DNA from: a virus
IMG/VR virus record: IMGVR_UViG_3300030419_007368
Location: 1-64,000 of that record
Length of the DNA: 64,000 bases
Reading direction: 5' to 3' (one strand)
Shown: piece by piece, positions 2,051 to 16,497 of the stretch
Layout of the letters: each line of letters starts with the position of its first letter
How positions within the stretch are numbered: the stretch's first letter is position 1
Made by a program: the position numbers and the translations under genes
The notes under the pieces: model-generated
Databases searched by the model: none
Seen by the model: the letters and a program-made list of their open reading frames with translations, nothing else
What the model was told of the DNA's origin: nothing

Positions 2051-2688
2051 AAAATTATATCTGCAATACCCAACTTTACAGCTTCGTGTGCATCGAAATA
2101 GACATTTGTCCTCTTGTCTATCAACTTTTTAATATACTTTTCTTCCATGTTCGTCTCTGAAGCTAAAGATTGAATGTACATCTTCTGTGTTAATTTTGTT
2201 TCAGCGAACTCGTTTTCCATATCCGCTATGTGCCCTGACTGTCCGGCTGCAACACCATGAATCATCACCCGACAGTTAGCGCCGATGCGACGTTCTCCCG
2301 TTGTGCCAGCAGCCAACAGCAGGACTCCAGCGGACATAACCTTTCCCACACCATATGTGTGTATGGGAGTGTCTTCTCTGATCATCCTCATAGTGTCGTA
2401 CACTCCAAACATCTCAGCCGCGTGTCCGCCGTGAGAGGATACATAAAAACTTATTGGTTGTATGACCTCTTCATACTCTGGCTCCTCCTCGGTACCGCCA
2501 GTTACAATCAGGTTTTTGCTGGTACTGTGAAGGGCCAGCAGGCCGTACATAGCATCACAACAACGATCTTCGTTAATATCTCCATAAATGCCAGTAACTC
2601 TCAGTTCTGACTGGCTTGATATGGAACTCAGTATGGAGGCGTTAGGGTTAGCGCCTTCTTTTGTCTTCTCATTGAATTTCCTAAACAA
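2047..2688 (-). CDS. clpP: ClpP-family protease subunit
   Basis: ISFYVSSHGG, VYDTM, KVMSAG (catalytic Ser), RVMIH (His), EAVKLGIAD. Exact start uncertain. Confidence 0.92.
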   Translation of the reverse strand: MFRKFNEKTKEGANPNASILSSISSQSELRVTGIYGDINEDRCCDAMYGLLALHSTSKNLIVTGGTEEEPEYEEVIQPISFYVSSHGGHAAEMFGVYDTMRMIREDTPIHTYGVGKVMSAGVLLLAAGTTGERRIGANCRVMIHGVAAGQSGHIADMENEFAETKLTQKMYIQSLASETNMEEKYIKKLIDKRTNVYFDAHEAVKLGIADIIF

Positions 2689-3037
2689 TTTTGTTCTCCT
2701 TTTCGATTTTCTCTACCTCTGTTAGTATCCTCATAGCCAGCTGCCAATCTGTTATGGACATCTTCCTCCACATTTGATCGTTAACAGAGTTTTTAAGTGA
2801 AAACAGCGCTAAGCGCCGCCAGTGCTCAAACGCAGCTTCGACGTCAGCGCGAGAAGAAGGATCAACAGACTTTAATAAGTCCTGCGCCATTCCGTCTATA
2901 AATTTTAAAAGCGCGATGCAATTTATAAAAGTAATTCGGTAAGAACTACTTTTTGAATAGGCTCCAAACACTTTAATTGCAAATATGTGGGAAATTACTC
3001 CTCCAAAAAACATCATAAAAGCTAAACTAAGATCCAT
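2681..3037 (-). CDS. Hypothetical protein with N-terminal hydrophobic segment
   Basis: 118 aa, N-terminus LSLAFMMFFGGVISHIFAI; overlaps the clpP start. Confidence 0.7.
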   Translation of the reverse strand: MDLSLAFMMFFGGVISHIFAIKVFGAYSKSSSYRITFINCIALLKFIDGMAQDLLKSVDPSSRADVEAAFEHWRRLALFSLKNSVNDQMWRKMSITDWQLAMRILTEVEKIEKENKIV

Positions 3038-4000: not shown

Positions 4001-4332
4001 AGATCATTCTCCACTTCTAATATGTCAAATATTGTTTTAATTTCTTCTTCTTTTAACGAAAATTTATCTTTATTTTCGCTAGCTAATCTGTGCATCTGCT
4101 TTATCTTTTTGCGCTTATTTTTGCCTTGTATCGCATTCTTTTCCTTACAAGAATCCAAAAAATTCAACACGCGCTCATCGCTCTCGATGTAACCGGTTAA
4201 CATAAAGCGAAAAAACTGTGATTGACTCAAGCCATCGTACTGACACCTTATCCTCAGCTTGGCTTGTCTTTCTGCGGTATCATAAAACATTATTTTCTTT
4301 CTTTCTTCAGTTTTAGAACCTTTGTCGCTCAT
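3997..4332 (-). CDS. Hypothetical protein (possible ribbon-helix-helix)
   Basis: 111 aa, ATGA-coupled to both neighbours; a short strand then two helices (KIMFY...AKLRIRC...LSQSQFFRFML). Confidence 0.6.
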   Translation of the reverse strand: MSDKGSKTEERKKIMFYDTAERQAKLRIRCQYDGLSQSQFFRFMLTGYIESDERVLNFLDSCKEKNAIQGKNKRKKIKQMHRLASENKDKFSLKEEEIKTIFDILEVENDL

Positions 4333-5351
4333 TTATCTCTCCAAAGGATGTGAGTTCCGGATTCGCTTTGGCCCGCTGAAGTCTGAGTCGTGAATTCACA
4401 GTTTAATTGCAGGTCTCTAATGCTAGTGCATCCTGAATAGGATAAGCCACTTCGAATGCCTCCGGCAATATCTCTCAACACTTCAGCGACCGGGCCGCGA
4501 TATGCAACAGTAGAGGACACGCCCTCTGGTGTAGAGGATTTCCCCCTCCAATCCTTTTGTGCGTTGCTCGAAGCCATCCCTCTATAAACCTTATATCTAG
4601 ACCCATCGGCGGAAGTAAACACTTGCCCCGGAGTCTCTTTTGTTCCAGCTAACATCGACCCCAACATCACAAAGTCAGCGCCGGCGGCTAGGGCCTTGAT
4701 TATATCGCCGCTAGTTTTGAAGCCGCCGTCAGCTACAATGGGTATTTCATGAGCAGTTCTTGCGCAATCGATGACGCTCTGCAACGTTGGTACACCATGC
4801 CCACTAACCAGCCGGGTGGAGCAAATAGAGCCACCGCCAATTCCGACACGAACTGAGTCGGCGCCCCATGAAGCAAGATCGTCAAACGCTTCTAGCGTTG
4901 CAACATTTCCCGCCATAAGGTGCACATCACGCCCAAATTTGTTCTTCAAACTGGACAGAGCATCTCTCATCATCACGTGATGGCCATGAGCTACGTCGAT
5001 ACAAAGTATGTTGGCGCCGGAGTCGACAACATTTTGCGCCCTCTCTAAGAAGTCGCCAGTCATACCGATTGCTGCAGCCACATGCTTGACGCCGGAAGTA
5101 TAAACATCAAAAACGATCTTAGCCTGTTCTTCGACAGAGTTATACCTGTGAATAATTCCCAACCCGCCGGCGGAAGACATAGACTTTGCCATGTTAAGCT
5201 CGGTAACCGTGTCCATGGGACTAGATATCACAGGTAGAGTAAGCTCAATGGATTCGGACAAGAACGCACTGGTATCGACATCAGACCTGCTGCGTATTTC
5301 ACTATATTTTGGCACTAGGAGTGTATCATCAAATGACAGCGATTTCTTCAT
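4329..5351 (-). CDS. IMP dehydrogenase / GMP reductase family, no CBS domains
   Basis: [37 protein letters not shown] (catalytic Cys), ADGG, YRGMAS. Start placed at ATG 5351, which overlaps the upstream stop (ATGA). Confidence 0.92.
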
Positions 5352-5680
5352 TGTTGACCGCCTCTTAGGTTGTTCAGTCTTCGCTGCAAATACCAAATTG
5401 CCTTCTCGATATCTCTCACTGCAGTGCCTTTGTGCATATGTCGGGATATATACTTGATGGCGTTACCGCAATTAAAGTCCAAATTCCAATCTTCTATAAC
5501 ATCAATGGTTTCATAAGCGCCATGATTGTAGTGCGAAGGGTGATCGACTAGGTTTAGCTTTACGTTCACTAAAGTACTGTTAGTTCCATCTGGATCGCAA
5601 GTCGAACCACCCTTAGGATGGCGATCTCGCATGTCCAGTTGCGCTGTGTTGTCGTGCCTGTTCTTTCTCTTATCTTTCAT
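5348..5680 (-). CDS. DUF3310 (T7 gp1.7-like nucleotide kinase family) protein
   Basis: VDHPSHY...ETIDVIE...FNCGNAIKYISR...KG...DIEKAIWYL; ATG 5680 has an AGGAG SD. Confidence 0.85.
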   Translation of the reverse strand: MKDKRKNRHDNTAQLDMRDRHPKGGSTCDPDGTNSTLVNVKLNLVDHPSHYNHGAYETIDVIEDWNLDFNCGNAIKYISRHMHKGTAVRDIEKAIWYLQRRLNNLRGGQQ

Positions 5681-5690
5681 GGTTTTCTCC

Positions 5691-6185
5691 TTAAAACCCA
5701 GACGGCATGCCATTTAGTGGGTTGTCGATTTTCTCATCTGTGCTGCCCAGGGCGCCGGTGCCGCGGCCTGATATAGTTATGTTATCACTGTATAACTGAC
5801 CCTCTACAAGTCTTGGTCGAAAGTGCACAACTGGGACTAAAATAAGTTGGGCGATCTTCGCGCCTCTCTCGACATACTGGGTCTCTCCCCCAATATTATG
5901 AAGGTCTACAAACACCTCCCCTTCGTAGCCACTGTCGACAATATGCGCGCCGACGACTAGGGACCGCTTTGCGCCCATACTTGACCGATTGCAAACCTGC
6001 AACATGTATCCATGCGGGATTCCAAAGCTAAGCCCAGTCGGGAGCAGCTTGTTTTCTCCCGGCTTTACACCTACCACCGAAGCCTTCGGGTCTTTAGGAC
6101 AGTAAAAAACATCCAAACCAGCGTCACTGGGGTTGGCTCGTGTCGGCGCTATCGCTCCGTGTCTCATCTTGTATTCCAAAATCAT
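5691..6185 (-). CDS. dut: Trimeric dUTPase
   Basis: DAGLD, RSS, IVDSGYEGE, KIAQL, RGTGALGST motifs; start at 6185 (or 6200). Confidence 0.95.
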   Translation of the reverse strand: MILEYKMRHGAIAPTRANPSDAGLDVFYCPKDPKASVVGVKPGENKLLPTGLSFGIPHGYMLQVCNRSSMGAKRSLVVGAHIVDSGYEGEVFVDLHNIGGETQYVERGAKIAQLILVPVVHFRPRLVEGQLYSDNITISGRGTGALGSTDEKIDNPLNGMPSGF

Positions 6186-6432
6186 TTTGTACCTCTTCAA
6201 TAATTTTCATTGCTGATCCCCAGCAATCTGGACAGTAAATCCTTACAACTTCTTCTTTCTCTCTCACAACAACATTCCAAGTCGTTGCATGTTCCTTTGA
6301 CTTTTTGTCAAAAGGCTTCTGACACATGTTGCACTCGTCACCGAGCATCCCGAACATCGTCATCTTTCTTTTAATTTCTTTTTTGGCTTTTTTGGCCTTG
6401 TTTCGGGCCATCTTTCTCTTCAAACTTCCCAT
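6124..6432 (-). CDS. Hypothetical CxxC...CxxC zinc-finger protein
   Basis: CNMC and YCPDC motifs; basic N-terminus; 3' end overlaps dut by about 60 nt. Confidence 0.7.
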   Translation of the reverse strand: MGSLKRKMARNKAKKAKKEIKRKMTMFGMLGDECNMCQKPFDKKSKEHATTWNVVVREKEEVVRIYCPDCWGSAMKIIEEVQNDFGIQDETRSDSADTSQPQ

Positions 6433-6434
6433 TA

Positions 6435-9400
6435 TTACCCCAATAATTTAAAAGTGTGGCGCACCGACCTGGTGCTGAATCCCCATTCTTCGCTAAAATC
6501 CAATTTAGCTGCATAGGGGCGATTAATATGTATAGTGTCAGTTTCTTTTACACCCCAGCACTTAATTGATGTCGTGGCTGAAGTCTCGTCGGTCACCTTA
6601 ACAATCCAATACGGCTTACCATTCTTAGTTTTCTTAACCAAGACTTCGCGGGGCACAAACCACGCGATACCGAGCTGTCGATCCCACTTACCAATTGGAG
6701 GCACCATGTGCTTGTCAATTGAGTCTCTAACCTGCTTGGACATAACCAGATCAAATGGGAAGATCCCGGTGAGGGAGGACACAAAATCAATTTTCTCTTC
6801 CTTAGAGAACTCTCCCTCCGGGGAATATAGATCTATATTCTCAAGCAACCGCTTCGTGGACTTTGGCTTATCTTGAATGCAAGCCATCCAAAAATGTTTT
6901 GATCCTGTGAAGCGATCATCGATTACGGACTTCAAAGCTTCCGAGCGACACAATACGTCGAGAGCCTTCTTGTTCAACTTTGAATACACAATATCTTCAT
7001 TAAACAACAATTCTTCCACATTGTTAAATGGTCGATTGTTGATAATCTGCTCAATCGCTTTGTCACCCAAGCCCTTGATAGAACTAAGAGGTTGAATTAG
7101 AGTTTTTCCATCCTCAGCGATCTCCCACTGCGCGGTTGATGTGTTAATGTCGAGAGCTTTAATCTTAAACCCGCTCTTCTGTGCTAAAGAAATAGCAGCC
7201 TCTTTGCGAGATTCGGGCTCCTTGTCAAGAAACGCAGCAATCCAACATTCAGGGTAATAGTTCAATAGCCATGCGCATTGAAAACTGAGTATAGAATAAG
7301 AAACAGCGTGAGACTTATTAAACCCATAACCGCTAAAGTACTCGAACGTTTGCCATAGGTCGCTTGCTGTGCTCTCCGCAATCTTCTTCTCCTTGCAGCC
7401 CTCGATAAATTTCTCTCTAATTTTATTCTTCTCTTGTGCACCTTTTCCAGTTCCTTTCTTTGTTAAAAGCTTGCGAAGTTTATTCCCCTCGTCAAGGGAA
7501 ATATCCTTTCCAAGTTTATGTGCAAGCAAGGCAATCTGCTCCTGAAATATAAGGAATCCAGCAGTTTCACTAGTGACCTCCTCAAAGACGTCATTAAAAT
7601 AGTAGACGTCATCCAAATTGTTCTTTGCCTTGACATATTTTTTATCGACGCCGGCGGAAAGTGGTCCTGGCCGGTAGATGGAAGTAATCGCAGAAATATC
7701 AATGATATTCTCTGGCTTTGCTCTTCGGGCTAGCCTTTGAGCGCCGGCATTAGTAAACTGGAAAACTCCAACAAATTTTCCTTTGTGGAAGATATTCTTG
7801 TACACTTTGCTGTCATTCAAATCGATCTTATCAGGGTGCAGGAACTTATCATAATAACCTTTGATGTCCTTAAAGGTTGGATTCTCGACATCATAATATC
7901 TCCTTAGCACGTGTGCCACTGCGGACTCGATCATCTCCAACGTAGAAAGCCCAAGTAAGTCAAATTTAATGAAGCCAAGGGGCTCAAGATGCCTCACATT
8001 CATTCCTTCTGACCACGGGGTCTGCATCACACCACCAGAACAAATCAAAGGCATGTGCTTGTCAAGGTCCTCTCCGATCACAACGCCGCCGGCATGACGG
8101 CTAGTTGACCTAACCTGGCCGACAAGAGACTCAACATGAGTCTTGATGTGGGGGTATTTGACAAGGAACATGTGTAGTGATTCAGAGTATTCCATAACCT
8201 CTTCAAAAGTTGGAACATACACACCAGCACGAATACCATGCTTTGCCTTCGCCTTCGGCGTAGCTTCTTTAACCATCCGACTTGTGACAGCGTTCACCTC
8301 TGGATATGGAACATCATAGAACTTTCCGATATCTTTGATGAGAGAACGAAGCTGCAAAGTGTTAAAGTTTGAGATGGGAACAACAGTGGTTTCTCCCCAC
8401 TCCTCGGCCAAGATCTCCTTAAGCCCGAATGCATCGCTGACGTCATAATCAATATCTGGATAATCTTTAGCATCAGATCGTAAAAACCTGCTGAAAAGTA
8501 GACCATGCTTAATTGGATCAACTTGTGTAATGCCAAGCACATAAGACACCAGAGAGCCAGCTGCGGATCCACGGCCCGGGCCAGCTAACATATGGTCCCC
8601 CGCCTTGTCTGATACTGCTTTCATGGTAAGAAAGTATTTACTGAAGCCTCTATTGTTGATGACAGTAAGCTCGTTTTTAAGTCGATCAACGTACTCTTGG
8701 TTGTCTTCCAGACCTAGTTTTCTCAGCCCAGCAATTGATTCTTTAACCAGCGTTTGTTCACCAGATTCGCCATCAGGGACAACAAACCCAGGGAGACGGA
8801 CAGTGTCATCCGGCATAAAGTCTTCAATTCTCTCATTAGCGATCCAATGAGTTTTTACAAGGGAATCATACACGATATCGTCGTTGTACGACACGCCGCA
8901 CTCTTCTGAATACTTCTTGTATGAGTCCCACATTTGATCGCCGTTCTTCGGATAAAGTTCCATGCCCATCTCATCGATATCGATTGGTAGCTCAGACTTC
9001 ATGTACTCTGGTACCTTTGATTTACCGAGCCAACCTAGGCGCTTATAAAGCTCGCGATCCTTCCAGGCCTCTGCGCTTGGATAGTGTGAATCAGCAGTAG
9101 AAATTAATTCAATTCCGAACTCTTCGTGCATTTTGATAACATACTTGTTTAATTCATGCTGCTCAGGCACGTTGTTCCATTGTAGCTCTCCGTACCAGCG
9201 ATCGCCCAGGCAGTCAATCATGCGTCGTGTGGTTGTGCGCATGGCCTCCAAGACGGCCTCTTCTCCCTCTTCTCGATTGTTCCAGTAATCCTTAGCATAT
9301 ACTCCACCTAAACATGCAGAGGAGGCGATTACTCCCTCTCCATATTCTTTAAGCAGAGCGTAATCCAAGCGCGGTTTGCGATAGAAATTATCGCCTTGGT

Positions 9401-9866
9401 GCGAATCAGATACAATCTTGAAGATGTTGTTAAGCCCAGTTTGATTCATTGCCAACAGAACAAGGTGGCCGCTGGAGTTGATTATACTCTTCGACTTACC
9501 TTTCGAAGCAGCTTCATCCTCGGTTTCGACCTTATCTGTGTCGTTAATGACTTTCCTAGCTTGCTTCTTATCTTCTTTAATGCGATCGTACTCTCGCTTC
9601 CATTCTTCAACGGAAGGCACGAAGTATGCTTCTACACCAAAGATGGGCTTAAAGTCTTTGCCGGCTTCCTTCATCTTTTTAGCGTGCAATACTTGATAAG
9701 ACATGCCATTCATATTTCCATGGTCAGTCAACGCTAGTGCGCTCATGCCGTTCTCATATGCAAAATCCATATGCTCTTGGGGGTATCCGAACCCGTCAAA
9801 GACCGAGCCGGCCACGCTGTGTGCATGCAAGCCTACGAAAGGAATGCTAGGTGTAGTTCTAGTCAT
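6435..9866 (-). CDS. dnaE: DNA polymerase III alpha subunit (family C)
   Basis: PHP domain (LHAHS, LTDHG, ADSHY), GRGSAAGSL, YPDIDYD, RHAGG, KFDLLGL, YGFNKSH; ATG 9866 with GGAG SD. Confidence 0.97.
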   Translation of the reverse strand: MTRTTPSIPFVGLHAHSVAGSVFDGFGYPQEHMDFAYENGMSALALTDHGNMNGMSYQVLHAKKMKEAGKDFKPIFGVEAYFVPSVEEWKREYDRIKEDKKQARKVINDTDKVETEDEAASKGKSKSIINSSGHLVLLAMNQTGLNNIFKIVSDSHQGDNFYRKPRLDYALLKEYGEGVIASSACLGGVYAKDYWNNREEGEEAVLEAMRTTTRRMIDCLGDRWYGELQWNNVPEQHELNKYVIKMHEEFGIELISTADSHYPSAEAWKDRELYKRLGWLGKSKVPEYMKSELPIDIDEMGMELYPKNGDQMWDSYKKYSEECGVSYNDDIVYDSLVKTHWIANERIEDFMPDDTVRLPGFVVPDGESGEQTLVKESIAGLRKLGLEDNQEYVDRLKNELTVINNRGFSKYFLTMKAVSDKAGDHMLAGPGRGSAAGSLVSYVLGITQVDPIKHGLLFSRFLRSDAKDYPDIDYDVSDAFGLKEILAEEWGETTVVPISNFNTLQLRSLIKDIGKFYDVPYPEVNAVTSRMVKEATPKAKAKHGIRAGVYVPTFEEVMEYSESLHMFLVKYPHIKTHVESLVGQVRSTSRHAGGVVIGEDLDKHMPLICSGGVMQTPWSEGMNVRHLEPLGFIKFDLLGLSTLEMIESAVAHVLRRYYDVENPTFKDIKGYYDKFLHPDKIDLNDSKVYKNIFHKGKFVGVFQFTNAGAQRLARRAKPENIIDISAITSIYRPGPLSAGVDKKYVKAKNNLDDVYYFNDVFEEVTSETAGFLIFQEQIALLAHKLGKDISLDEGNKLRKLLTKKGTGKGAQEKNKIREKFIEGCKEKKIAESTASDLWQTFEYFSGYGFNKSHAVSYSILSFQCAWLLNYYPECWIAAFLDKEPESRKEAAISLAQKSGFKIKALDINTSTAQWEIAEDGKTLIQPLSSIKGLGDKAIEQIINNRPFNNVEELLFNEDIVYSKLNKKALDVLCRSEALKSVIDDRFTGSKHFWMACIQDKPKSTKRLLENIDLYSPEGEFSKEEKIDFVSSLTGIFPFDLVMSKQVRDSIDKHMVPPIGKWDRQLGIAWFVPREVLVKKTKNGKPYWIVKVTDETSATTSIKCWGVKETDTIHINRPYAAKLDFSEEWGFSTRSVRHTFKLLG

Positions 9867-9894
9867 CAATACTTCTCCATGTTTACTACAAAAC

Positions 9895-9922
9895 AATATA
9901 AAAATATGTTATCGAAAGTAAA
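9895..9922 (-). promoter_or_regulatory. Possible sigma70-type promoter of dnaE
   Basis: TTTACT-16 nt-TATATT on the minus strand. Confidence 0.35.
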
Positions 9923-9929
9923 CAGGAGT

Positions 9930-11525
9930 TTAATTATTTAAGATTTCAGACTGTATAGACAATATCAACCTTTTAATTTCTTCCAGATTTCTGCGCTGGG
10001 CTGCGTCTTTATATACCTTTCGCTTGTGGTAGTGAGTATTGCCCTTGACTTTGCCGTAGACGCCGGATCCCATTGCGTCATAATACTTTTTTCCGACCCT
10101 ACTCAAGACCCACTTGTAGGTCTTGTTAACTACTTGCCTGTACTTTTGATAGTTATACTCTTTTCCGTGACAATTAATGGTCGCGGCCGGCCCGACAGGT
10201 GGAGGACCTCCCCACTCATCTACCTTATTTGCTAATTTTATAACGTACCTGGATACGTAATCCGAAAAAACCTCCGGGTCGAGCGCTCGACAGACGTCAT
10301 TACCACCAAGAGTAACAATTCTTATTGATGTGGGATTGTAAGCTGCAATAGTCTCTGCCATACTCTTCTGCTCTTGCAGTTTCTTTTTGTCCTTTTTCGA
10401 CTTGCCCTGTAGGTCGGCCTGCTTTGCCATAAACAAAGTTTCATACCACCATCTTGATGAAGCTCCGTTCCTGTACAGAACTCTAACCGCTCTGTCCGAC
10501 GTCTCAAATTTCTTAATTAAAGTTGCCTCCTGGTAGGCGGTCGACGAGTCTCCAATAAAAAGAATTCTTTCTTTATACTTCTCGAAGCTTTTTGGTACAA
10601 ATACGTACGTATAGGAAAAAGTAACGGCTATTGGAACGCCATTTTTCTTGGCCGGTGCAAACTCAGACCTCCGTAAAGCGTCCATAACGACCTGGACAAA
10701 TTCCTTTGTAACGCGCTTTGAATTGGGGCGGTCTGGGTCAAGCTTGGTGCCTATTACTTTCCCTTCAGCATCGAGGGTCACCAGCACAGACACACCTAGC
10801 CGAGCCTTTACGGTCGGCTCAGGGACCGGGCGAGCGAGCTTTAGTAACTTAGGGTTCTCAATACCGGCTGGGGCGGGGGGATCAGCATGCACCACTCCAT
10901 GATTTGGATAAAGCTGCTTAAACGCCTCTGCCCCCGTTTTTACTTTTGTGGCATAGCTTCTGACAGGTCGACCGTAGTATATGTCAGTAGTCTTAAGATA
11001 ATACTTCATATCTCCAGTTTTCACCGCTTTATTCGCTGGTATCACTAGTCTTTTTCCTACGGCTTTCACAAACCTGGTTAAAAGCTCCATGCTAACACGC
11101 GCCGGGTCGCTTTGATAAGCCTCCCAAGCTTGTTGAGGGTCGGGATAAATCTTCAAAAGATGACGACCCATGACTTGAAAAGTACCCCACGCGGTTGATG
11201 CAATTGCAGCTTTCGGAGCAATTTTAAAAGCCTTTTCGAAATTTCTATATTTTGCCCGGTGATCAGAGTAAGTTTTTTTTCCGGATTGGTGAGGGCCGAT
11301 ATGTAATTTTTGCTTTTTAAGCTCCGGTATTTTATCCTCTTCGCCGAACTCTTTTGCGCGAGCAAGTAAATGATTATTGTTGAATGCTCGGGCGCCTGGA
11401 GAAAACGAGGTTTCAACCAAAGCCATACCGGCTATCCAAGCCGGATGCACTCCTGTATTGCTCGCCGCTTCGATAAGCAAATCATAATTGCTTTTTATCT
11501 TTTTTTTAGCTTTTTCTATATTCAT
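9930..11525 (-). CDS. N-acetylmuramidase (DUF3380-like) + TonB C-terminal-like + SGNH hydrolase fusion
   Basis: N-terminal: ALVETS...AAIASTAWGTFQVMG. Middle: VLVTLDAEGKV...VMDALRRSEFAPAKKNGVPIAVTFSYTYVF. C-terminal: ILFIGDSS, NGASS, TLGGND, NTHY. Confidence 0.75.
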   Translation of the reverse strand: MNIEKAKKKIKSNYDLLIEAASNTGVHPAWIAGMALVETSFSPGARAFNNNHLLARAKEFGEEDKIPELKKQKLHIGPHQSGKKTYSDHRAKYRNFEKAFKIAPKAAIASTAWGTFQVMGRHLLKIYPDPQQAWEAYQSDPARVSMELLTRFVKAVGKRLVIPANKAVKTGDMKYYLKTTDIYYGRPVRSYATKVKTGAEAFKQLYPNHGVVHADPPAPAGIENPKLLKLARPVPEPTVKARLGVSVLVTLDAEGKVIGTKLDPDRPNSKRVTKEFVQVVMDALRRSEFAPAKKNGVPIAVTFSYTYVFVPKSFEKYKERILFIGDSSTAYQEATLIKKFETSDRAVRVLYRNGASSRWWYETLFMAKQADLQGKSKKDKKKLQEQKSMAETIAAYNPTSIRIVTLGGNDVCRALDPEVFSDYVSRYVIKLANKVDEWGGPPPVGPAATINCHGKEYNYQKYRQVVNKTYKWVLSRVGKKYYDAMGSGVYGKVKGNTHYHKRKVYKDAAQRRNLEEIKRLILSIQSEILNN

Positions 11526-11542: not shown

Positions 11543-12397
11543 TTAATCATCAAATCCGATTTCATTCCACTCTGCGTAGGAAAGCGTCGCCGGCTTCTTA
11601 ATATATTTAGTTTCTCCTAGAAACTCACAGTATTTTTCCCAGCAATCAATTGAGAAATATTCTTCGACTGAGATAGTATGGTGGTTCTCAAAATCAAGGT
11701 TTTCAAATACTTTCTCCAAATCAAAATGTTTATATGAGTAGCGCTCTTCGACGGAAAGTCGTTCTTGGCGCTGGACTGGATCTCTCCACAACCCACTGGA
11801 TGAAGTGTGGGACTCCTTTTTCAACTGTTCGATATCATCCATGTCAAATGTGACCCCTAAATAAAGATTATCCTTCACAGTTCTCCCCTCATAACTAATT
11901 GCAACTTTTGAATCTAAGAGTTGTCGTCGAACATCGCGCACAACAGAAGGAATATAGTAACCATATGGCCATGCGACATAGAATCTGTCAGGCGCCAGCC
12001 AGCGACTTATGCCACTCGACACCTTATGGGCGGTAAGGGCGCCGTGAATCGCAGACCACGCTAAATTATCCCTCTTGTTGATATCCCTAATCGCCAGTGG
12101 AATGTAATATATTTTTATAGGTCTTTTGAAGTCGTTCTTGTTGTGTTCAAAATGTCTATAACTGTAAATTGGGTCCTGTATTTTCTCGCCGACATGATGC
12201 TTTATGAGGCTGGAGACGTCATCACCGCAAACAACCCATATAGTGTTGCAGCCGGCATATGCACACTCCAGCACAGCCCTCTCAACGGCTAGATAGTTTG
12301 GTGCTAGCGGCATCATACTAGCATGCCATGGCATGTTAAAATCAGATCTTATACCAGAGACAGGTACGATGCCGGCAATGTGTCTTTTTAAACTCAT
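11543..12397 (-). CDS. Divergent sugar-phosphate nucleotidyltransferase-like protein
   Basis: AGIVPVSG...PWHASMMPL...AVERAVLECAYAGCNTIWVV resembles the NTP_transferase N-terminus, but the GxGxR loop is degenerate. Confidence 0.6.
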   Translation of the reverse strand: MSLKRHIAGIVPVSGIRSDFNMPWHASMMPLAPNYLAVERAVLECAYAGCNTIWVVCGDDVSSLIKHHVGEKIQDPIYSYRHFEHNKNDFKRPIKIYYIPLAIRDINKRDNLAWSAIHGALTAHKVSSGISRWLAPDRFYVAWPYGYYIPSVVRDVRRQLLDSKVAISYEGRTVKDNLYLGVTFDMDDIEQLKKESHTSSSGLWRDPVQRQERLSVEERYSYKHFDLEKVFENLDFENHHTISVEEYFSIDCWEKYCEFLGETKYIKKPATLSYAEWNEIGFDD

Positions 12398-12420
12398 AAC
12401 CAGCTCAATAGCAGTTCAAC

Positions 12421-12837
12421 TCAATAATCTTTTTGATACTTTAACATCATCTCGTCGATGTATTCCGCCACGTGATCGTTCTGCGGAATGTCCGGCAGCA
12501 TTTTTCCAATTTCTCGAATTACATCGACGCATTGTGCTTCCGGGCCAAACTCGCGCTCGTCGTAGTCGTCATAGTATTCCTCATACAAGTCACCTTCTCC
12601 CATCAAGAAATCTTCCTCGTTGACCGGACCTACGTCCAGGCCGGTGGGTCCGTAATAATCATCGTCTTCTTCCTGGTAAAGGTAGTCGCTGGGGCCGAGC
12701 GCCCATGCGTCTTCCTCGTAAATGAGATCCTCGTCGAGTTCTTCCTCAAGCTCTTCTTCGAATTCTTCAAAAATGGGCGACAAAGCATCATACTCTTCTT
12801 TAATAATTTCTTGTAGTCTTTTTTTGGTAATCTTCAT
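12421..12837 (-). CDS. Acidic protein with MKITKKRLQEIIKEE leader (putative internal head protein)
   Basis: 138 aa, D/E/Y rich; AGGAG SD; late motif upstream. Confidence 0.65.
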   Translation of the reverse strand: MKITKKRLQEIIKEEYDALSPIFEEFEEELEEELDEDLIYEEDAWALGPSDYLYQEEDDDYYGPTGLDVGPVNEEDFLMGEGDLYEEYYDDYDEREFGPEAQCVDVIREIGKMLPDIPQNDHVAEYIDEMMLKYQKDY

Positions 12838-12855
12838 GCTGACTCTCCTGTATAT

Positions 12856-12863
12856 TAATTAGT
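12856..12863 (-). promoter_or_regulatory. Putative late-promoter motif (ACTAATTA)
   Basis: 19 nt upstream of the 12837 start. Confidence 0.55.
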
Positions 12864-14820
12864 CCCAACCACCCCAATCTTCACGATTTTCCGCTGGGGA
12901 CTTGGGAGTCATGGGTGGCATAGGCTTTTCCTTTCTCGTTACAGCTGCCACACGAGACTGCTTCGGTTTCGAAACTGTGCGCTTTCTTGGCGTCACAGCT
13001 TTTGCCACGGCGCGCTTCTTATCTGCAGGGACGTAGCAATCTGGATTAAGCCGGCACATTTTTTTCTTCCAGGCGGCAGAAGTTTCTCCTTTTAGCCTAG
13101 TATATATTGAGTACCTCTTACCAGGAACTTGGACTTTCAAATACCCCTTTCTCCTGGCTGCCCAATAAGCTTTTGAAAAGGACATTCCGGGATCTGGAAT
13201 GTAGACTGCAGCCTTCTCACCTTTTTGCTTCTTCGGTGCTTTGCTAACCTTTGCCGCTTGGCCTTTTGGTTTCTTTGGTGCTTTAGCTACGAGTTGTGCA
13301 CGTGAAGGCTTCTTTGGCTTCTTCGGGGTAGTTTTCTTCTCTCTTTTTTTCCAGAGTTCCCAATCATCACATACGCCGGCCGGCATTTCTCCGGGTCTGT
13401 TTTTGCAAAGAGAGTCCACCGTCGGCCGAAAGAGCTTGAGACAGCCATAGGTGTGTCGGCCGGTACAGTACTGCTTTGAGGCTTGATACTCTTGTTGTGT
13501 TGGTATGTCGTGAGGACTAGCCCGAGTCATCCACCTAAATTTTTCCGGAATCTTGAGGCCTCCTATACGCCTCCCACGAGAATCTCGTTTTGTCTTCTCC
13601 ATCGGCGTCTCTTTTCGATATTTTTTTAACTTCGCGGCTGTGGCCCAACTAAAACGCTCCCAAAGGTCCTTGTAAGCCTGGTTGGAGTGATTTGCCCAGG
13701 ATGGCTGTGGCAAGTATTTCATATCCTGTGGGCGGATCCGTGCATCCAGATAGTTCATACGGTAATGAATCCACAGCCTTGTCTTTTCCGCGCCTTGCTC
13801 CATGTCCGATGTGGCCCGGTAAGCCCAATTTTCCGCATTTTGAACAATTCGAATCACTCTGCGCTCTCCAGAAGAATAATCTGAAATTATCTTACGTATG
13901 TACTTGTATGATCTCATACCCCAAATGCCGTCTTCTTCGATCTTTTCCCACCCCTTGTATCTCTTCTCAATAACCTTATTGGCTGCAGCCTGTAGCTTCT
14001 TTACTTGCTCTCGGGTGCCCGGGGACAGATTGACACCCCGGTATCGACCTGTTCGATCACCATACTTTGGATGGCTTGGGTCTGGTCTGAAGTTTAGTAT
14101 ATATCTCAGAGCCTCGGAGTACTTAGGCCGTCGAGCTTTAGTTTTTTTTGTTTTAGGAGTGGGTACGCCGGCGAGGGCTCCGAGGGCAGAACCAGCACTT
14201 GCAATAGCGCCAAGGCCAGAACGGAATGGATCAATGATAGGCGCCAGGGTTGATTTGATATTTTTACTTCTCGGAGAAAAATGTTTCTTGCCATATGCAG
14301 GTTGGCGACGGACGATCCGTTTGCCGTCGCGGGTCATGTTAAAATAGAAAAAAGAATTTTTTCTTCTCTTGCCACTCTTTAAGATCCCTAGAACGCGCTT
14401 ATCAAGTTTCCGAGTACCATCCACCACCGCGTTGTGTGTCAAAGCCCACTCCACCCACCTTTGGGCTGTTAAGATCTTTGTCCTGTCTTGTTGCTTATCT
14501 AGCCTCGACCATGCTATTTTCCCAGCGCTGCTCTTTCTACGTCCTTTGTATCTAGGGTATCCACCGAGGGCGTAATATTCGTCTAAAATTCTTCGAACAT
14601 AGTTAATCTCTTTGGCTTTTATCTTGTACTTCTTTTCTGGGAAGCGACTCCGATCCCGGGCTGAGGGGCCGACAAGGGGGTGTCCGGGCCTAAAGATATC
14701 CGGGAGCACCCCTCTCGGATCTCTCACCTTCTTCTTGCCCTTCTTGCCCTTGGCTTCAAGAACACCCTCGCTTGGGTCATCTCCTGTTTGTGATTCTAAC
14801 TCGTCCAAAGTTAACTCCAA
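12859..14820 (-). CDS. Very basic protein with PG_binding_1-like segment; in frame with the upstream ORF across one TAG
   Basis: 653 aa, K/R rich; QVKKLQAAAN...EEDGIWGMRS resembles a peptidoglycan-binding domain; TTG start. Confidence 0.6.
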   Translation of the reverse strand: MELTLDELESQTGDDPSEGVLEAKGKKGKKKVRDPRGVLPDIFRPGHPLVGPSARDRSRFPEKKYKIKAKEINYVRRILDEYYALGGYPRYKGRRKSSAGKIAWSRLDKQQDRTKILTAQRWVEWALTHNAVVDGTRKLDKRVLGILKSGKRRKNSFFYFNMTRDGKRIVRRQPAYGKKHFSPRSKNIKSTLAPIIDPFRSGLGAIASAGSALGALAGVPTPKTKKTKARRPKYSEALRYILNFRPDPSHPKYGDRTGRYRGVNLSPGTREQVKKLQAAANKVIEKRYKGWEKIEEDGIWGMRSYKYIRKIISDYSSGERRVIRIVQNAENWAYRATSDMEQGAEKTRLWIHYRMNYLDARIRPQDMKYLPQPSWANHSNQAYKDLWERFSWATAAKLKKYRKETPMEKTKRDSRGRRIGGLKIPEKFRWMTRASPHDIPTQQEYQASKQYCTGRHTYGCLKLFRPTVDSLCKNRPGEMPAGVCDDWELWKKREKKTTPKKPKKPSRAQLVAKAPKKPKGQAAKVSKAPKKQKGEKAAVYIPDPGMSFSKAYWAARRKGYLKVQVPGKRYSIYTRLKGETSAAWKKKMCRLNPDCYVPADKKRAVAKAVTPRKRTVSKPKQSRVAAVTRKEKPMPPMTPKSPAENREDWGGWD

Positions 14821-15090: not shown

Positions 15091-15800
15091 GTCCCTCTCC
15101 AAAAAATAGAATCAACCTCTTTATAAATAGTCTGATAAATTGGATAAACATCTCTTTTCCAAAAAGCCAAACTAATCGCCGGCGAACCAAGTTTGCTGAG
15201 TATGTCAGCAGCCTTGATCCTCGCCATCGTATCAGAAAATCGATGGTCGTTTAGTTGTTCCGGAGACAGTAGTGATTCACAAACAATATCCTTATGATTG
15301 TTATTACCATCCACTCGACAACTATTAAAAAAACGTATCTCCCTAATAAAGCCGTCATCAAGGTGGATATCGCTAGAATGACTGCCAAGAGAGCGAGCGT
15401 CAAACCAATCCAAAACTCGATATCTTATAACTTTCCGAGAAAAGTACTCTTCCAGGCCGAAGACGTTCTCCAGATCAAACAAGTATAATTTATCATACCT
15501 TATTTGATGGAGGTTGTTATTCTTCGTGTGCACCGTTATTAGCTTGGCTTCTGGATCGATCCTCAGAGACTCTACCAAGTTTGTAAACGGGTTTAAACAC
15601 TTCTCGAACAGCTCATAACTACGTCGAGCCCAGTCTTCTTCTAGTGTACCAGCGTCGGAGTTGAGAAGTGGCTCATAAGAATGAAGATCAGGAAAACGAT
15701 TGAAAAGTATAGGAATCTCGTTCTCAAGGGCAAATCGTACTGCATCTAAGCCTCCTCCCAGAACAACTCTAGGCCAGTCTTTTTCAACACCCGCACCCAT
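15087..15800 (-). CDS. Hypothetical protein with degenerate FAD/NAD Rossmann-like N-terminus
   Basis: VVLGGGLDAVRFALENEIPILF resembles a GxGxxG/A beta-alpha-beta unit; start uncertain (15800 or 15839). Confidence 0.5.
   Translation of the reverse strand: MGAGVEKDWPRVVLGGGLDAVRFALENEIPILFNRFPDLHSYEPLLNSDAGTLEEDWARRSYELFEKCLNPFTNLVESLRIDPEAKLITVHTKNNNLHQIRYDKLYLFDLENVFGLEEYFSRKVIRYRVLDWFDARSLGSHSSDIHLDDGFIREIRFFNSCRVDGNNNHKDIVCESLLSPEQLNDHRFSDTMARIKAADILSKLGSPAISLAFWKRDVYPIYQTIYKEVDSIFWRGT
15124..15131 (-). promoter_or_regulatory. Putative late-promoter motif (ACTATTTA) inside the end of the upstream gene
   Basis: 34 nt upstream of the 15090 start. Confidence 0.5.
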
Positions 15801-16497
15801 CGTAACCCGAAATCTTGACCCTTTTTCTATATTTCTCAATGGACTTGTGCCACTTTTTCAACAGACGGTAGTGCTTAACCTTCTCGTAGCACCGACCCCC
15901 TTTTTTTGGAGCCCTGACGGCTGTAACCCAAGCGGCCAACCACTTGCGCTTTTCACTTTTAAAACTGCAATTTTTCTTGACGGATTTTTTTAGCTGTCTC
16001 TTGATTCGCTTCATCCAAAAATCTGCAGATTCTGTAGGATTTTCTCTGTCGATATACTTCTCAGCCCAAGGCCAAAACTGCAATATCCCTACAGCCTTTG
16101 GCTTTCTCTTTTTACTGAATTTTCTATCGCCCCTGGCTTGAGGATTGTAGCCACTCTCCATGCAGGCTGCTGCCAACAACATGCCTCTTAGACTTGGAGG
16201 AGGATTATATTTTTTTTCTATCGCTACAAGCTTCCAAAGCAACGCCTCGTTGACCTTCGTGACATTCCTCACATTAGGGCAATTGAAGACAGCCTCGTCG
16301 ATTAGTTCATCATACGTAACTGGGCTGTTCTTTCCAGTCTTTACGAAGTTCTTATCCGACCCATCACTCAACCTTATTGGTTTTACGAAGGAGCCAATAT
16401 CTGGAGTGCCCTTGTGTGATAGATTTTTGTAGTCTGGCTTCGCATCGCTGCCTGCGCCAGTTGGCAGTATCAAAAACAAAGCAAAAATAAAATTCAT
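15784..16497 (-). CDS. Signal-peptide-bearing lytic transglycosylase (SLT/lysozyme-like)
   Basis: MNFIFALFLILPTGAG signal-like N-terminus; AACMESGYNPQARGD (catalytic Glu), AVGILQF, NPTESA. Confidence 0.8.
   Translation of the reverse strand: MNFIFALFLILPTGAGSDAKPDYKNLSHKGTPDIGSFVKPIRLSDGSDKNFVKTGKNSPVTYDELIDEAVFNCPNVRNVTKVNEALLWKLVAIEKKYNPPPSLRGMLLAAACMESGYNPQARGDRKFSKKRKPKAVGILQFWPWAEKYIDRENPTESADFWMKRIKRQLKKSVKKNCSFKSEKRKWLAAWVTAVRAPKKGGRCYEKVKHYRLLKKWHKSIEKYRKRVKISGYDGCGC

What the first reader, a model, noticed from the sequence alone, without database searches (positions are those of the whole stretch)
9930..11525. Three-domain fusion: muramidase + TonB C-terminal domain + SGNH esterase
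Seen: DUF3380-type muramidase motifs (VETS, STAWGTFQVMG), a Pro-rich linker, a TonB_C-like domain (VTLDAEGKV...SEFAPAKKNGVPIAV) and SGNH blocks (GDS, G, GGND, a C-terminal His without the usual DxxH Asp). No signal peptide or membrane anchor. Known: O-acetylation blocks muramidases and is removed by SGNH-family Ape esterases; TonB_C binds TonB boxes of outer-membrane transporters and also peptidoglycan. Inference: an enzyme that docks under a TonB-dependent receptor, de-O-acetylates and cuts the wall during entry or lysis, or blocks TonB-dependent superinfection. I do not know this architecture from described phages.
Basis: partly seen in the sequence, partly recalled or inferred. Interest (0 to 1): 0.8.

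Follow-up and report, generated by a model that had tools for sequence, protein, structure and literature searches.

The report
Phage wall enzyme with captured TonB domain
An uncultured marine phage encodes a cell-wall-cutting enzyme fused to an esterase-type domain, a pairing that recurs in related uncultured phages, and only this phage has a bacterial TonB C-terminal domain spliced between the two, a combination I found in no other virus.

Summary
Window 9930-11525 (minus strand) is one 531-aa ORF on a 147-kb marine myovirus contig, and it has three real domains.

- Residues 1-213: a PF11860-type lysozyme fold. It matches phage AP3 endolysin with Z 14.8.
- Residues about 233-312: a TonB C-terminal domain. 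It hits TonB_C proteins at E 1e-8, and its model matches TonB C-terminal domains first.
- Residues 316-531: an SGNH fold, Z about 14.

Three things are new.

- The SGNH domain defines an undescribed family of uncultured phage proteins. In that family it is always fused to a wall-cutting domain (PF11860, SLT, T4 lysozyme or M74).
- The TonB_C domain is a roughly 270-nt, GC-rich insertion into the linker. Syntenic orthologues at 74% identity lack it, as did every other family member recovered.
- This copy has Asn496/Tyr499 where relatives have the catalytic DxxH. Its subfamily also has Asn in place of the second muramidase Glu.

My best reading is a holin-released lysis enzyme. The esterase domain prepares peptidoglycan for cleavage, and the TonB_C domain acts as an envelope-binding module. 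Activity, ligand and timing are untested.

The scan earlier noted SGNH-lysin fusions on other DNA, but none with TonB_C.

The parts
9930..11525 (-). Whole gene, 531 aa plus stop. A single ORF that starts 18 nt after the stop of the upstream 284-aa gene.
10887..11525 (-). Residues 1-213: divergent PF11860-type lysozyme-fold (muramidase-like) domain
   Evidence: Pfam PF11860 E 2.3e-11. PHROG endolysin families. VIA Z 14.8 to 5nm7, 13.6 to Pae87, 13.1 to LysT84. pLDDT about 90. dN/dS about 0.07 against the orthologue.
11412..11414 (-). Glu38, the likely catalytic acid. It aligns with Pae87 Glu29 (AP3gp15 Glu101).
   Evidence: Alignment A6, where the column is invariant. Roles of the Pae87 residues come from PMC8972805.
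11370..11393 (-). ARAFNNNH motif (residues 45-52). Asn49 sits where canonical PF11860 enzymes have the second catalytic Glu (LFERH in a Pae87-type endolysin).
   Evidence: motif conserved in all SGNH-fused relatives. Strand 46-49 followed by a helix in the model. The register is inferred, not read from a structural superposition.
10581..10846 (-). In-frame insertion of about 266 nt that is absent from the syntenic orthologue. GC is 51% against 43-44% in the flanks.
   Evidence: DNA alignment with L003. Protein alignment A1.
10590..10829 (-). Residues about 233-312: TonB C-terminal (TonB_C) domain, preceded by a Pro-rich stretch (215-232)
9933..10580 (-). Residues 316-531: SGNH-hydrolase-fold domain ending in a long C-terminal helix
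10545..10553 (-). Block I, G325-D326-S327 (Ser327 is the putative nucleophile). Invariant in the family.
10296..10307 (-). Block III, G407-G408-N409-D410 (oxyanion Asn). GGN is invariant in the family.
10026..10040 (-). Block V position, N496-T-H498-Y499-H500. Relatives have D/E/N at 496 and His at 499. Here the codons are AAT and TAC, against GAC and CAC in the orthologue.
   Evidence: The position of the family His at the end of full-length Lipase_GDSL_2 matches comes.

Best explanation
This is a modular peptidoglycan-degrading enzyme of an uncultured marine T4-like-capsid myovirus. It has no export signal, so it most likely reaches the wall at lysis through holin lesions, as the main or an accessory lysin.

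Shown:
- An N-terminal lysozyme-fold domain of the PF11860 type with one clear catalytic Glu (E38).
- A C-terminal SGNH-fold domain. It belongs to a previously undescribed phage family that is always joined to a wall-cleaving domain.
- A TonB C-terminal domain of bacterial origin, inserted in the Pro-rich linker in this phage lineage only.

Inferred:
- The family's SGNH domain removes ester substituents from peptidoglycan, most plausibly 6-O-acetyl groups on MurNAc. These groups block lysozymes and lytic transglycosylases, so the domain would be a fused equivalent of the bacterial Ape1-LtgA partnership.
- The inserted TonB_C domain acts as a binding module that holds the enzyme at the peptidoglycan/outer-membrane interface. 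It would bind either by beta-strand pairing with the Ton box of abundant TonB-dependent transporters or by binding peptidoglycan.
- Because the canonical block V His is Tyr here, the esterase step in this particular copy may rely on a neighbouring His (498 or 500) or may be lost.
For: Domain identities.

The SGNH domain travels with wall-cleaving domains.
- Of 17 relatives, 7 carry SLT, 6 PF11860 and 2 Peptidase_M74.
- A profile search for longer proteins added 6 new members: 3 with PF11860, 2 with SLT and 1 with Phage_lysozyme PF00959. None has TonB_C.
- Block I GDS and block III GGN are invariant in the family.
- Published work shows O-acetylation blocks lytic transglycosylases and that Ape1 and LtgA form a synergistic complex (PMC7083599).

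The TonB_C domain is an insertion.
- Orthologues P0002 and P0003 (74% identity, same gene neighbours in L003) lack residues about 228-315.
- The insert has 51% GC against 43-44% in the flanks.
- The TonB_C-to-SGNH junction is reproduced base for base in a separate public assembly contig.

Lysis role.
- Characterised PF11860 members are endolysins (5nm7, Pae87, LysT84).
- No Amidase_2, SLT, Phage_lysozyme or M23 match was found elsewhere in the 147-kb record.
- No hydrophobic N-terminal segment.
- Strong purifying selection on the muramidase domain.
Against: - The gene is not in a lysis cassette. It lies between unknown genes and DNA polymerase III alpha, and no small membrane-protein gene is adjacent.
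- In two related lineages the family member coexists with a separate Amidase_2 gene. That gene could be the true endolysin, which would make this family accessory.
- The record is only about 81% complete.
- The catalytic His column is Tyr and the Asp column is Asn in this copy.
- Structural matches to Ape1 and PatB tie with generic GDSL lipases, so substrate specificity is not indicated.
- The second catalytic Glu of PF11860 enzymes appears replaced by Asn.
- The TonB_C insertion is known from a single phage population, so selection on it cannot be measured.
- No enzymatic or binding assay exists.
Confidence: 0.55

Rival explanations
1. It is a virion-associated or ejected lysin used at entry. 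The protein would be packaged and delivered into the periplasm when the tail penetrates. There the TonB_C domain grips the periplasmic Ton box of the receptor or a nearby transporter while the enzyme opens the wall.
For: - There is no export signal, and the protein is large for a Gram-negative endolysin.
- Relatives reach 600-1043 aa with several wall-cleaving domains, and some lie next to very large proteins of about 2000 aa.
- The SLT domains of relatives resemble those of T7-type internal virion protein gp16.
- Two related lineages have a separate Amidase_2 gene that could be the endolysin.
- The upstream neighbours are a highly acidic and a highly basic protein of unknown function.
Against: - The gene lies in the replication and nucleotide-metabolism region, about 20 kb from the tail genes.
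- It has no tail, baseplate or head-targeting domain.
- No other candidate endolysin was recognised in the record.
Confidence: 0.2
2. Only the lysozyme-fold domain still works. The esterase is a dead or decaying domain in this copy because it has lost the block V His and Asp. The TonB_C segment is a recent, neutral passenger acquired by illegitimate recombination into a tolerant linker.
For: - N496 and Y499 replace D and H, each by a single-base change relative to the orthologue.
- The insertion is unique to one phage population and still differs from the flanks in GC content.
- A subgroup of the family (P0015, P0021, P0022) also lacks the His.
Against: - The insert is in frame and spans exactly one complete, confidently folding domain placed in the linker.
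- GDS, G354 and GGND are intact.
- H498 and H500 flank the lost His and are conserved in the clade.
Confidence: 0.15
3. The SGNH domain is lipolytic, analogous to LysB, rather than a peptidoglycan de-O-acetylase. It would attack outer-membrane lipids or lipid-linked wall components from the periplasmic side. The TonB_C domain would tether it to outer-membrane transporters, giving a spanin-independent way to break the outer membrane.
For: - The top structural neighbours include GDSL lipases, TesA and lysophospholipases at the same Z as the carbohydrate esterases.
- The established partner of TonB_C is an outer-membrane protein.
- Earlier scan notes describe SGNH esterases and lipases in phage lysis cassettes.
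Against: The family's constant partner is a peptidoglycan-cleaving domain of four different kinds. That points to peptidoglycan as the shared substrate. No lipid-binding feature was identified.
Confidence: 0.1
4. It is a TonB competitor. The TonB_C domain would saturate the Ton boxes of host transporters to shut down TonB-dependent uptake, or to exclude phages and bacteriocins that need TonB.
For: The fold and homology are those of the Ton-box-binding domain.
Against: - There is no signal peptide or membrane anchor, so the protein is not in the periplasm before lysis.
- The domain is fused between two wall-acting enzyme domains, not to an exported carrier.
- The YP motif of TonB_C proteins reads EP here.
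Confidence: 0.05
5. It is an assembly chimera. The TonB_C segment would come from bacterial reads misjoined into the phage contig.
For: Only one long contig carries it, GC content is higher in the insert, and reads could not be examined.
Against: - The insertion is in frame and lies at a domain boundary.
- A separate public assembly holds a 516-bp contig that is 100% identical across the TonB_C-to-SGNH junction.
- No bacterial sequence closer than about 44% identity was found.
Confidence: 0.03

Closest known systems
PF11860 (DUF3380) endolysins: Burkholderia phage AP3 gp15 (5nm7), Pseudomonas phage JG004 Pae87 (7q4s/7q4t), E. coli phage LysT84 (7rum)
   Same: Same lysozyme-like fold (Z 13.1-14.8, 173-176 residues aligned). 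The central AWGxFQ(V/I)MG motif is shared, and so is the first catalytic Glu (E38 = Pae87 E29). AP3gp15 and LysT84 are also modular, with a wall-binding domain.
   Different: The N-terminal 70 residues fall outside the Pfam match. The second catalytic Glu (LFERH) appears replaced by Asn in ARAFNNNH. The binding module is TonB_C placed after the catalytic domain, not an N-terminal PG_binding_1. An SGNH domain is added.
Ape1 O-acetylpeptidoglycan esterase and its complex with the lytic transglycosylase LtgA (Neisseria; PMC7083599). C. jejuni Ape1 (8gkd), N. meningitidis Ape1 (4k3u).
   Same: An SGNH fold (Z 13.6-13.8) is functionally paired with a glycan-strand-cleaving enzyme. Here the pairing is covalent.
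   Different: There is no sequence-level relationship. The match ties with generic GDSL esterases and with PatB and OatA acetyltransferases. No counterpart of Ape1's CBM35 module is evident: this SGNH domain is about 216 residues, against Ape1 chains of 350-356. The canonical His is absent in this copy. Activity is untested.
TonB C-terminal domain (E. coli 1u07, 2gsk, 2grx; P. aeruginosa 6i97, 6fip)
   Same: Same fold (best TMt 0.70), with significant sequence homology to TonB_C-bearing proteins. It is preceded by a Pro-rich stretch, as in TonB.
   Different: It has no N-terminal membrane helix and no motor-coupling region, so it cannot transduce energy. It sits inside a soluble phage enzyme. 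It scores below the Pfam gathering threshold. The YP motif reads EP. Its nearest relatives are bacterial proteins with 3-4 tandem TonB_C repeats, at 31-44% identity.
Multi-domain lysins with a central binding module between two catalytic domains (e.g. streptococcal lambdaSa2 lysin; own knowledge, not checked here)
   Same: The layout is catalytic domain, then binding module, then catalytic domain.
   Different: Those are lysins of Gram-positive hosts with Cpl-7 or SH3b modules. A TonB_C module implies a diderm host.
SGNH esterase nested in a lambda-R-type transglycosylase on a giant-phage tail spike (earlier scan notes e1-5364885 and e1-5364889)
   Same: An uncultured phage joins an SGNH esterase to a glycan-cleaving wall enzyme, with the same proposed de-O-acetylation logic.
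   Different: The lysin family, topology (nested rather than tandem) and location (tail spike) all differ, and there is no TonB_C. I did not compare the sequences.

Membership tests
Pfam PF11860 N-acetylmuramidase (DUF3380) | Match to the family HMM above the gathering score | tested here: met
   44.7 bits against a cut-off of 22.3, E 2.3e-11. The match covers only profile positions 48-133 of 175.
Pfam PF11860 N-acetylmuramidase (DUF3380) | Lysozyme-like alpha/beta fold shared with solved members | tested here: met
   Z 14.8 to 5nm7 (rmsd 2.9, 176 residues aligned), Z 13.6 to 7q4t, Z 13.1 to 7rum. Model pLDDT is about 90.
Pfam PF11860 N-acetylmuramidase (DUF3380) | First catalytic Glu at the end of the central helix (Pae87 E29, AP3gp15 E101) | tested here: met
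   E38 in LVETS aligns with the Glu of KVES in a Pae87-type endolysin. The column is invariant in A6. Residue roles come from PMC8972805.
Pfam PF11860 N-acetylmuramidase (DUF3380) | Second conserved catalytic Glu at the end of beta-strand 1 (Pae87 E46 in LFERH) | tested here: not met
   The corresponding strand (residues 46-49) reads RAFN, followed by NNH. The ARAFNN motif is conserved in all SGNH-fused relatives. The register is inferred from motif and secondary structure, not from a residue-level superposition.
SGNH/GDSL hydrolase superfamily | Block I GDS with the nucleophilic Ser | tested here: met
   G325-D326-S327, invariant in 17 relatives.
SGNH/GDSL hydrolase superfamily | Block II Gly and block III GxN(D) oxyanion residues | tested here: met
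   N353-G354, and G407-G408-N409-D410. GGN is invariant.
SGNH/GDSL hydrolase superfamily | Block V DxxH (catalytic His and Asp) | tested here: not met
   The family His column, which holds His in 11 of 17 relatives, is Y499. The Asp column is N496. H498 and H500 flank the site.
SGNH/GDSL hydrolase superfamily | Three-layer alpha/beta/alpha SGNH fold | tested here: met
   Foldseek E down to 7e-5. VIA Z 12.4-14.2 over residues 315-521 to more than 40 SGNH entries. Pfam Lipase_GDSL is below cut-off for this protein (19.7 against 23.6), but relatives reach Lipase_GDSL_2 at 3e-9.
Ape1-type O-acetylpeptidoglycan esterase | Specific release of 6-O-acetyl from MurNAc | not testable with these tools
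   Only context supports it: the domain is fused to four kinds of wall-cleaving domain. The structural match to Ape1 ties with generic esterases and with PatB.
Pfam PF03544 TonB_C domain | Match to the family HMM above the gathering score | tested here: not met
   16.3 bits against a cut-off of 24.6, E 0.013, covering profile positions 18-77 of 79.
Pfam PF03544 TonB_C domain | Significant homology to proteins that carry the domain | tested here: met
   15 phmmer hits at E 9.7e-9 to 7e-4 in a library of 1.8 billion proteins. All 15 carry PF03544.
Pfam PF03544 TonB_C domain | TonB C-terminal-domain fold (three-stranded sheet packed against a helix) | tested here: met
   The AF2 model has pLDDT 86.7 and pTM 0.73. 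PDB ranks 1-10 are all TonB C-terminal domains or the homologue FusB, with best TMt 0.70 and rmsd 3.2. Atlas TM is 0.74-0.79. Caveat: the model's alignment was made of TonB_C proteins.
TonB energy transducer (whole protein) | N-terminal membrane helix that couples to ExbBD, followed by a periplasm-spanning region | tested here: not met
   The N terminus is a soluble lysozyme-fold domain with no hydrophobic segment. Only the C-terminal domain of TonB is present.
TonB_C function | Binding of a Ton box by beta-strand pairing | not tested
   The host and its transporters are unknown, and no complex prediction was run.

The most novel reading that the evidence does not exclude
A phage has captured the Ton-box-binding domain of TonB and built it into a wall-degrading enzyme. 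On reaching the periplasm, the enzyme would latch onto the abundant TonB-dependent transporters of its host, possibly a marine Bacteroidota. It would then work at the inner face of the outer membrane. This would be the first viral TonB mimic and a new kind of targeting module for lysins of diderm bacteria.
Probability: 0.25. Interest if true: 0.8.

Novelty: new variant of a known kind. Interest (0 to 1): 0.55.

Why it matters
- Lysins of Gram-negative hosts rarely carry binding modules. The known ones are peptidoglycan-binding repeats. A TonB_C module would be a new way to position a lysin, and possibly a transplantable targeting domain for engineered lysins.
- The recurrent fusion of one SGNH family to four unrelated wall-cleaving domains in uncultured marine phages suggests that ester-modified peptidoglycan is a common obstacle for phages in the sea. 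It gives a defined set of proteins with which to test phage-borne de-O-acetylation, an activity I found described for no cultured phage.
- The natural pair of this protein and its insert-less, DxxH-intact orthologue is a ready-made experiment.

Tried and rejected
- **IMG/VR.** Scans with the middle domain and with the close-homologue alignment found no relatives. The 17-sequence alignment was too diverse to scan.
- **GenBank phages.** tblastn gave no match to the whole protein. A four-repeat TonB_C query hit a single uncultured faecal contig end. The SLT+SGNH relative P0011 matched only through its SLT domain.
- **BFVD.** The fold search with the TonB_C model gave nothing better than E 0.43.
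- **Donor search in 185,579 reference genomes.** It gave only 31-44% identical TonB_C segments, in Acidobacteriota, Fibrobacteres and Polyangiales, so no donor or host can be named.
- **PDB profile search with the family alignment.** It reached only the SLT/lysozyme part and not the SGNH domain.
- **Combined alignment.** Mixing TonB_C and SGNH relatives misaligned the domains and was not used for folding.
- **Whole-protein AF2 model.** It left the middle domain at low confidence because that alignment had no relatives for it. The domain was therefore folded alone.
- **Ser327-His distance.** It could not be measured because model coordinates are not exposed.
- **Lysis cassette.** No holin-like small membrane protein lies next to the gene. 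The nearest unassigned ORF with an N-terminal hydrophobic segment is at 2681-3037.
- **Complex prediction.** Not used. The host is unknown, and a stand-in Ton box would mostly test likeness to solved complexes.
- **Literature on peptidoglycan binding by the TonB C-terminal domain.** The searches did not retrieve a source. That possibility rests on my own recollection of Kaserer et al. 2008, unchecked.
Full report
**1. What is there**

Window 9930-11525 holds a single 531-aa ORF on the minus strand. The window is the first 64 kb of a 147,474-bp IMG/VR virus record estimated to be 81% complete.

The window encodes a T4-type major capsid protein, portal, large terminase, tail sheath, tape measure, DNA polymerase III alpha, ribonucleotide reductase and dUTPase, all on one strand. 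The capsid protein's nearest cultured relatives are Flavobacterium phages of the 'immuto' group (48% identity), followed by Microcystis and Rhodothermus phages. That is a weak hint of a Bacteroidota-like diderm host.

**2. The three domains**

(a) *Residues 1-213, muramidase-like.*
- Pfam PF11860 scores E 2.3e-11, above its cut-off, but covers only residues 70-155.
- PHROG endolysin families match, and PDB sequence hits are AP3gp15 and Pae87.
- In the AF2 model (pLDDT about 90), residues 12-207 superpose on AP3gp15 with Z 14.8. They superpose on Pae87 with Z 13.6 and on LysT84 with Z 13.1.
- E38 aligns with the first catalytic Glu of Pae87 (residue roles from PMC8972805).
- The second catalytic Glu of canonical members (LFERH) appears replaced. 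This protein and all its SGNH-fused relatives have ARAFNN(N/S/Y), and the model places strand 46-49 immediately before a helix, as in Pae87.
- So this is a divergent, single-Glu branch of the fold. Whether it hydrolyses or acts as a lytic transglycosylase is open.

(b) *Residues about 233-312, TonB_C.*
- Pfam TonB_C alone is weak (E 0.013).
- An exhaustive HMMER search of 1.84 billion representatives with residues 215-531 returned 15 proteins matching residues about 220-313 at E 9.7e-9 to 7e-4. All 15 carry PF03544, mostly as 3-4 tandem copies.
- Folded with these as the alignment, the domain gives pLDDT 86.7 and pTM 0.73. Its ten best PDB matches are all TonB C-terminal domains or the homologue FusB, with best TMt 0.70.
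- The ESM Atlas's own model gives TM 0.74-0.79 to TonB_C clusters.
- There is no TonB membrane helix. Only the C-terminal domain and a Pro-rich lead-in are present.

(c) *Residues 316-531, SGNH.*
- Pfam Lipase_GDSL is sub-threshold.
- Relatives found by the exhaustive search reach Lipase_GDSL_2 at 3e-9, Lipase_GDSL at 2.8e-8 and DUF459.
- The model (pLDDT above 90) matches more than 40 SGNH structures at Z 12.4-14.2.
- PatB (13.8), Ape1 (13.8 and 13.6) and OatA (12.5) are among these matches. They tie with generic esterases and lipases, so the structure does not indicate a substrate.

**3. The family and the insertion**

The SGNH domain defines a small family known only from metagenomes: 16 relatives and 6 new ones.

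In every member with a recognisable partner, that partner cleaves peptidoglycan. The partners are SLT, PF11860, Phage_lysozyme PF00959 and Peptidase_M74. None has TonB_C.

The contexts are phage-like.
- P0011 (SLT+SGNH) lies beside DNA polymerase III alpha, dUTPase and an IMPDH-like dehydrogenase on marine contigs ranging from a few kb to 146 kb, the longest shown being 102 kb. This is the same neighbourhood as in this window.
- P0009 lies among very large proteins.
- Both lineages also have a separate Amidase_2 gene.

The closest homologues (P0002, P0003, P0006; 68-74% identity) lack residues about 228-315. P0003 sits in the same gene order as here. P0006 appears truncated at its N terminus.

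At DNA level the difference is one in-frame block of about 266 nt inside the Pro-rich linker. Its GC is 51% against 43-44% in the flanks. This is therefore a recent, lineage-specific capture of a foreign domain.

A 516-bp contig from a separate public assembly is 100% identical and spans the TonB_C-to-SGNH junction. The upstream junction has no independent support, and reads could not be examined. The nearest bacterial TonB_C segments are only 31-44% identical, so no donor can be named.

**4. The active site of the esterase**

Block I GDS (325-327), G354 and GGND (407-410) are intact and family-invariant.

In block V the family column that carries His in 11 of 17 relatives is Tyr499 here, and the Asp/Glu column is Asn496. 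That His column lies at the end of full-length Lipase_GDSL_2 matches in P0011 and P0016.

The orthologue has GAC and CAC where the window has AAT and TAC. H498 and H500 flank the site and are conserved in the clade.

This copy is therefore either using a shifted His or has lost esterase activity. I could not measure the Ser-His geometry. A subgroup (P0015, P0021, P0022) also lacks the His.

**5. How it most likely works**

The protein has no signal peptide or hydrophobic segment. It must therefore reach the wall either through holin lesions at lysis or by being ejected from the virion.

I favour a lysis-stage enzyme for three reasons.
- Characterised PF11860 members are endolysins.
- No Amidase_2, SLT, Phage_lysozyme or M23 gene was found elsewhere in the record.
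- The gene is far from the tail module.

There are weak exceptions: an SLT-like hit in the ORF at 15784-16497 and an M15_4-like hit in a 1249-aa ORF outside the window.

Against this reading, there is no adjacent holin, and the separate Amidase_2 genes in related lineages suggest the family may be accessory.

The constant pairing with four kinds of wall-cleaving domain argues that the SGNH domain's substrate is peptidoglycan itself. 6-O-acetyl groups block both lysozymes and lytic transglycosylases. In Neisseria, the esterase Ape1 and the transglycosylase LtgA form a mutually stimulating complex (PMC7083599). A covalent phage version of that pair is the most economical reading, but it is an inference.

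The TonB_C insert most plausibly adds binding. The established ligand of this fold is the Ton box of outer-membrane transporters (solved complexes 2gsk, 2grx and 6i97 are among the hits). Peptidoglycan binding by the TonB C-terminal domain is a claim I recall from the literature but could not retrieve. Either ligand would hold the enzyme at the wall/outer-membrane interface.

**6. Novelty**

- No GenBank phage matches the protein.
- TonB_C is essentially absent from 50,697 phage records at tblastn sensitivity.
- No TonB_C-like fold was found among the BFVD models.
- IMG/VR gave no relatives.
- No PHROG family matches the middle or C-terminal domain.
- Earlier notes of this scan describe SGNH esterases joined to phage wall enzymes on other DNA, so the esterase-lysin theme is not unique to this window.

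The TonB_C insertion is unique so far, but it is a singleton of unknown function in a copy whose esterase site is altered. I rate it a new variant of a known kind (modular phage lysins), of moderate to good interest.

Noticed in passing
window 15784-16497 (-): A 237-aa ORF upstream has a weak, sub-threshold SLT match (E 0.0043, residues 104-148). It may be a second lysozyme-like protein in the same block of unknown genes.
   Followed up: partly
L008:5418-7982 and L010:10001-12765: The relative P0010 (854 aa) carries muramidase-like, SGNH and NUDIX domains in one protein. In the related contigs L010 and L011, the NUDIX protein (195 aa) is a separate gene immediately downstream of the lysin-SGNH gene. 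This is a gene fusion or fission of unclear meaning.
   Followed up: no
L005-L007 and window 4329-11525: A neighbourhood is conserved across distant marine phage lineages: DNA polymerase III alpha, lysin-SGNH gene, dUTPase and an IMPDH-like dehydrogenase. The lytic domain is swapped between them (SLT there, PF11860 here), and the lysin gene sits on the other side of the polymerase.
   Followed up: partly
window 11543-14820 (-): Three conserved genes with no family match lie directly upstream and are syntenic in L003: 284 aa, a very acidic 138 aa and a very basic Lys-rich 653 aa.
   Followed up: no
P0015, P0021, P0022 (e.g. L004:1459-4590): A subgroup of the SGNH family keeps GDS and GGND but has Pro in the catalytic His column and lacks the PPxGP segment. 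P0015 and P0021 carry SLT, and P0021 and P0022 carry M74. These may be non-catalytic esterase-fold domains.
   Followed up: partly
G000:C1 about 110008-113750 (-), outside the window (L009): A 1249-aa open frame has a weak Peptidase_M15_4-like stretch (E 0.008, below cut-off). It may be a virion-associated wall peptidase. Pfam found nothing in its C-terminal 711 aa.
   Followed up: partly
window 2681-3037 (-): A 118-aa ORF in an otherwise unassigned gap has a strongly hydrophobic N-terminal segment. It is the nearest small membrane-protein candidate to the lysin, but it lies 7 kb away.
   Followed up: no
window 44638-46497 (-): The major capsid protein is closest to Flavobacterium phage vB_FspM_immuto (48%), Microcystis phage Mel-JY01, Rhodothermus phage RM378 and two uncultured huge phages (LR756508, LR756511). 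The phage thus belongs to a deep T4-like branch with few cultured members.
   Followed up: partly
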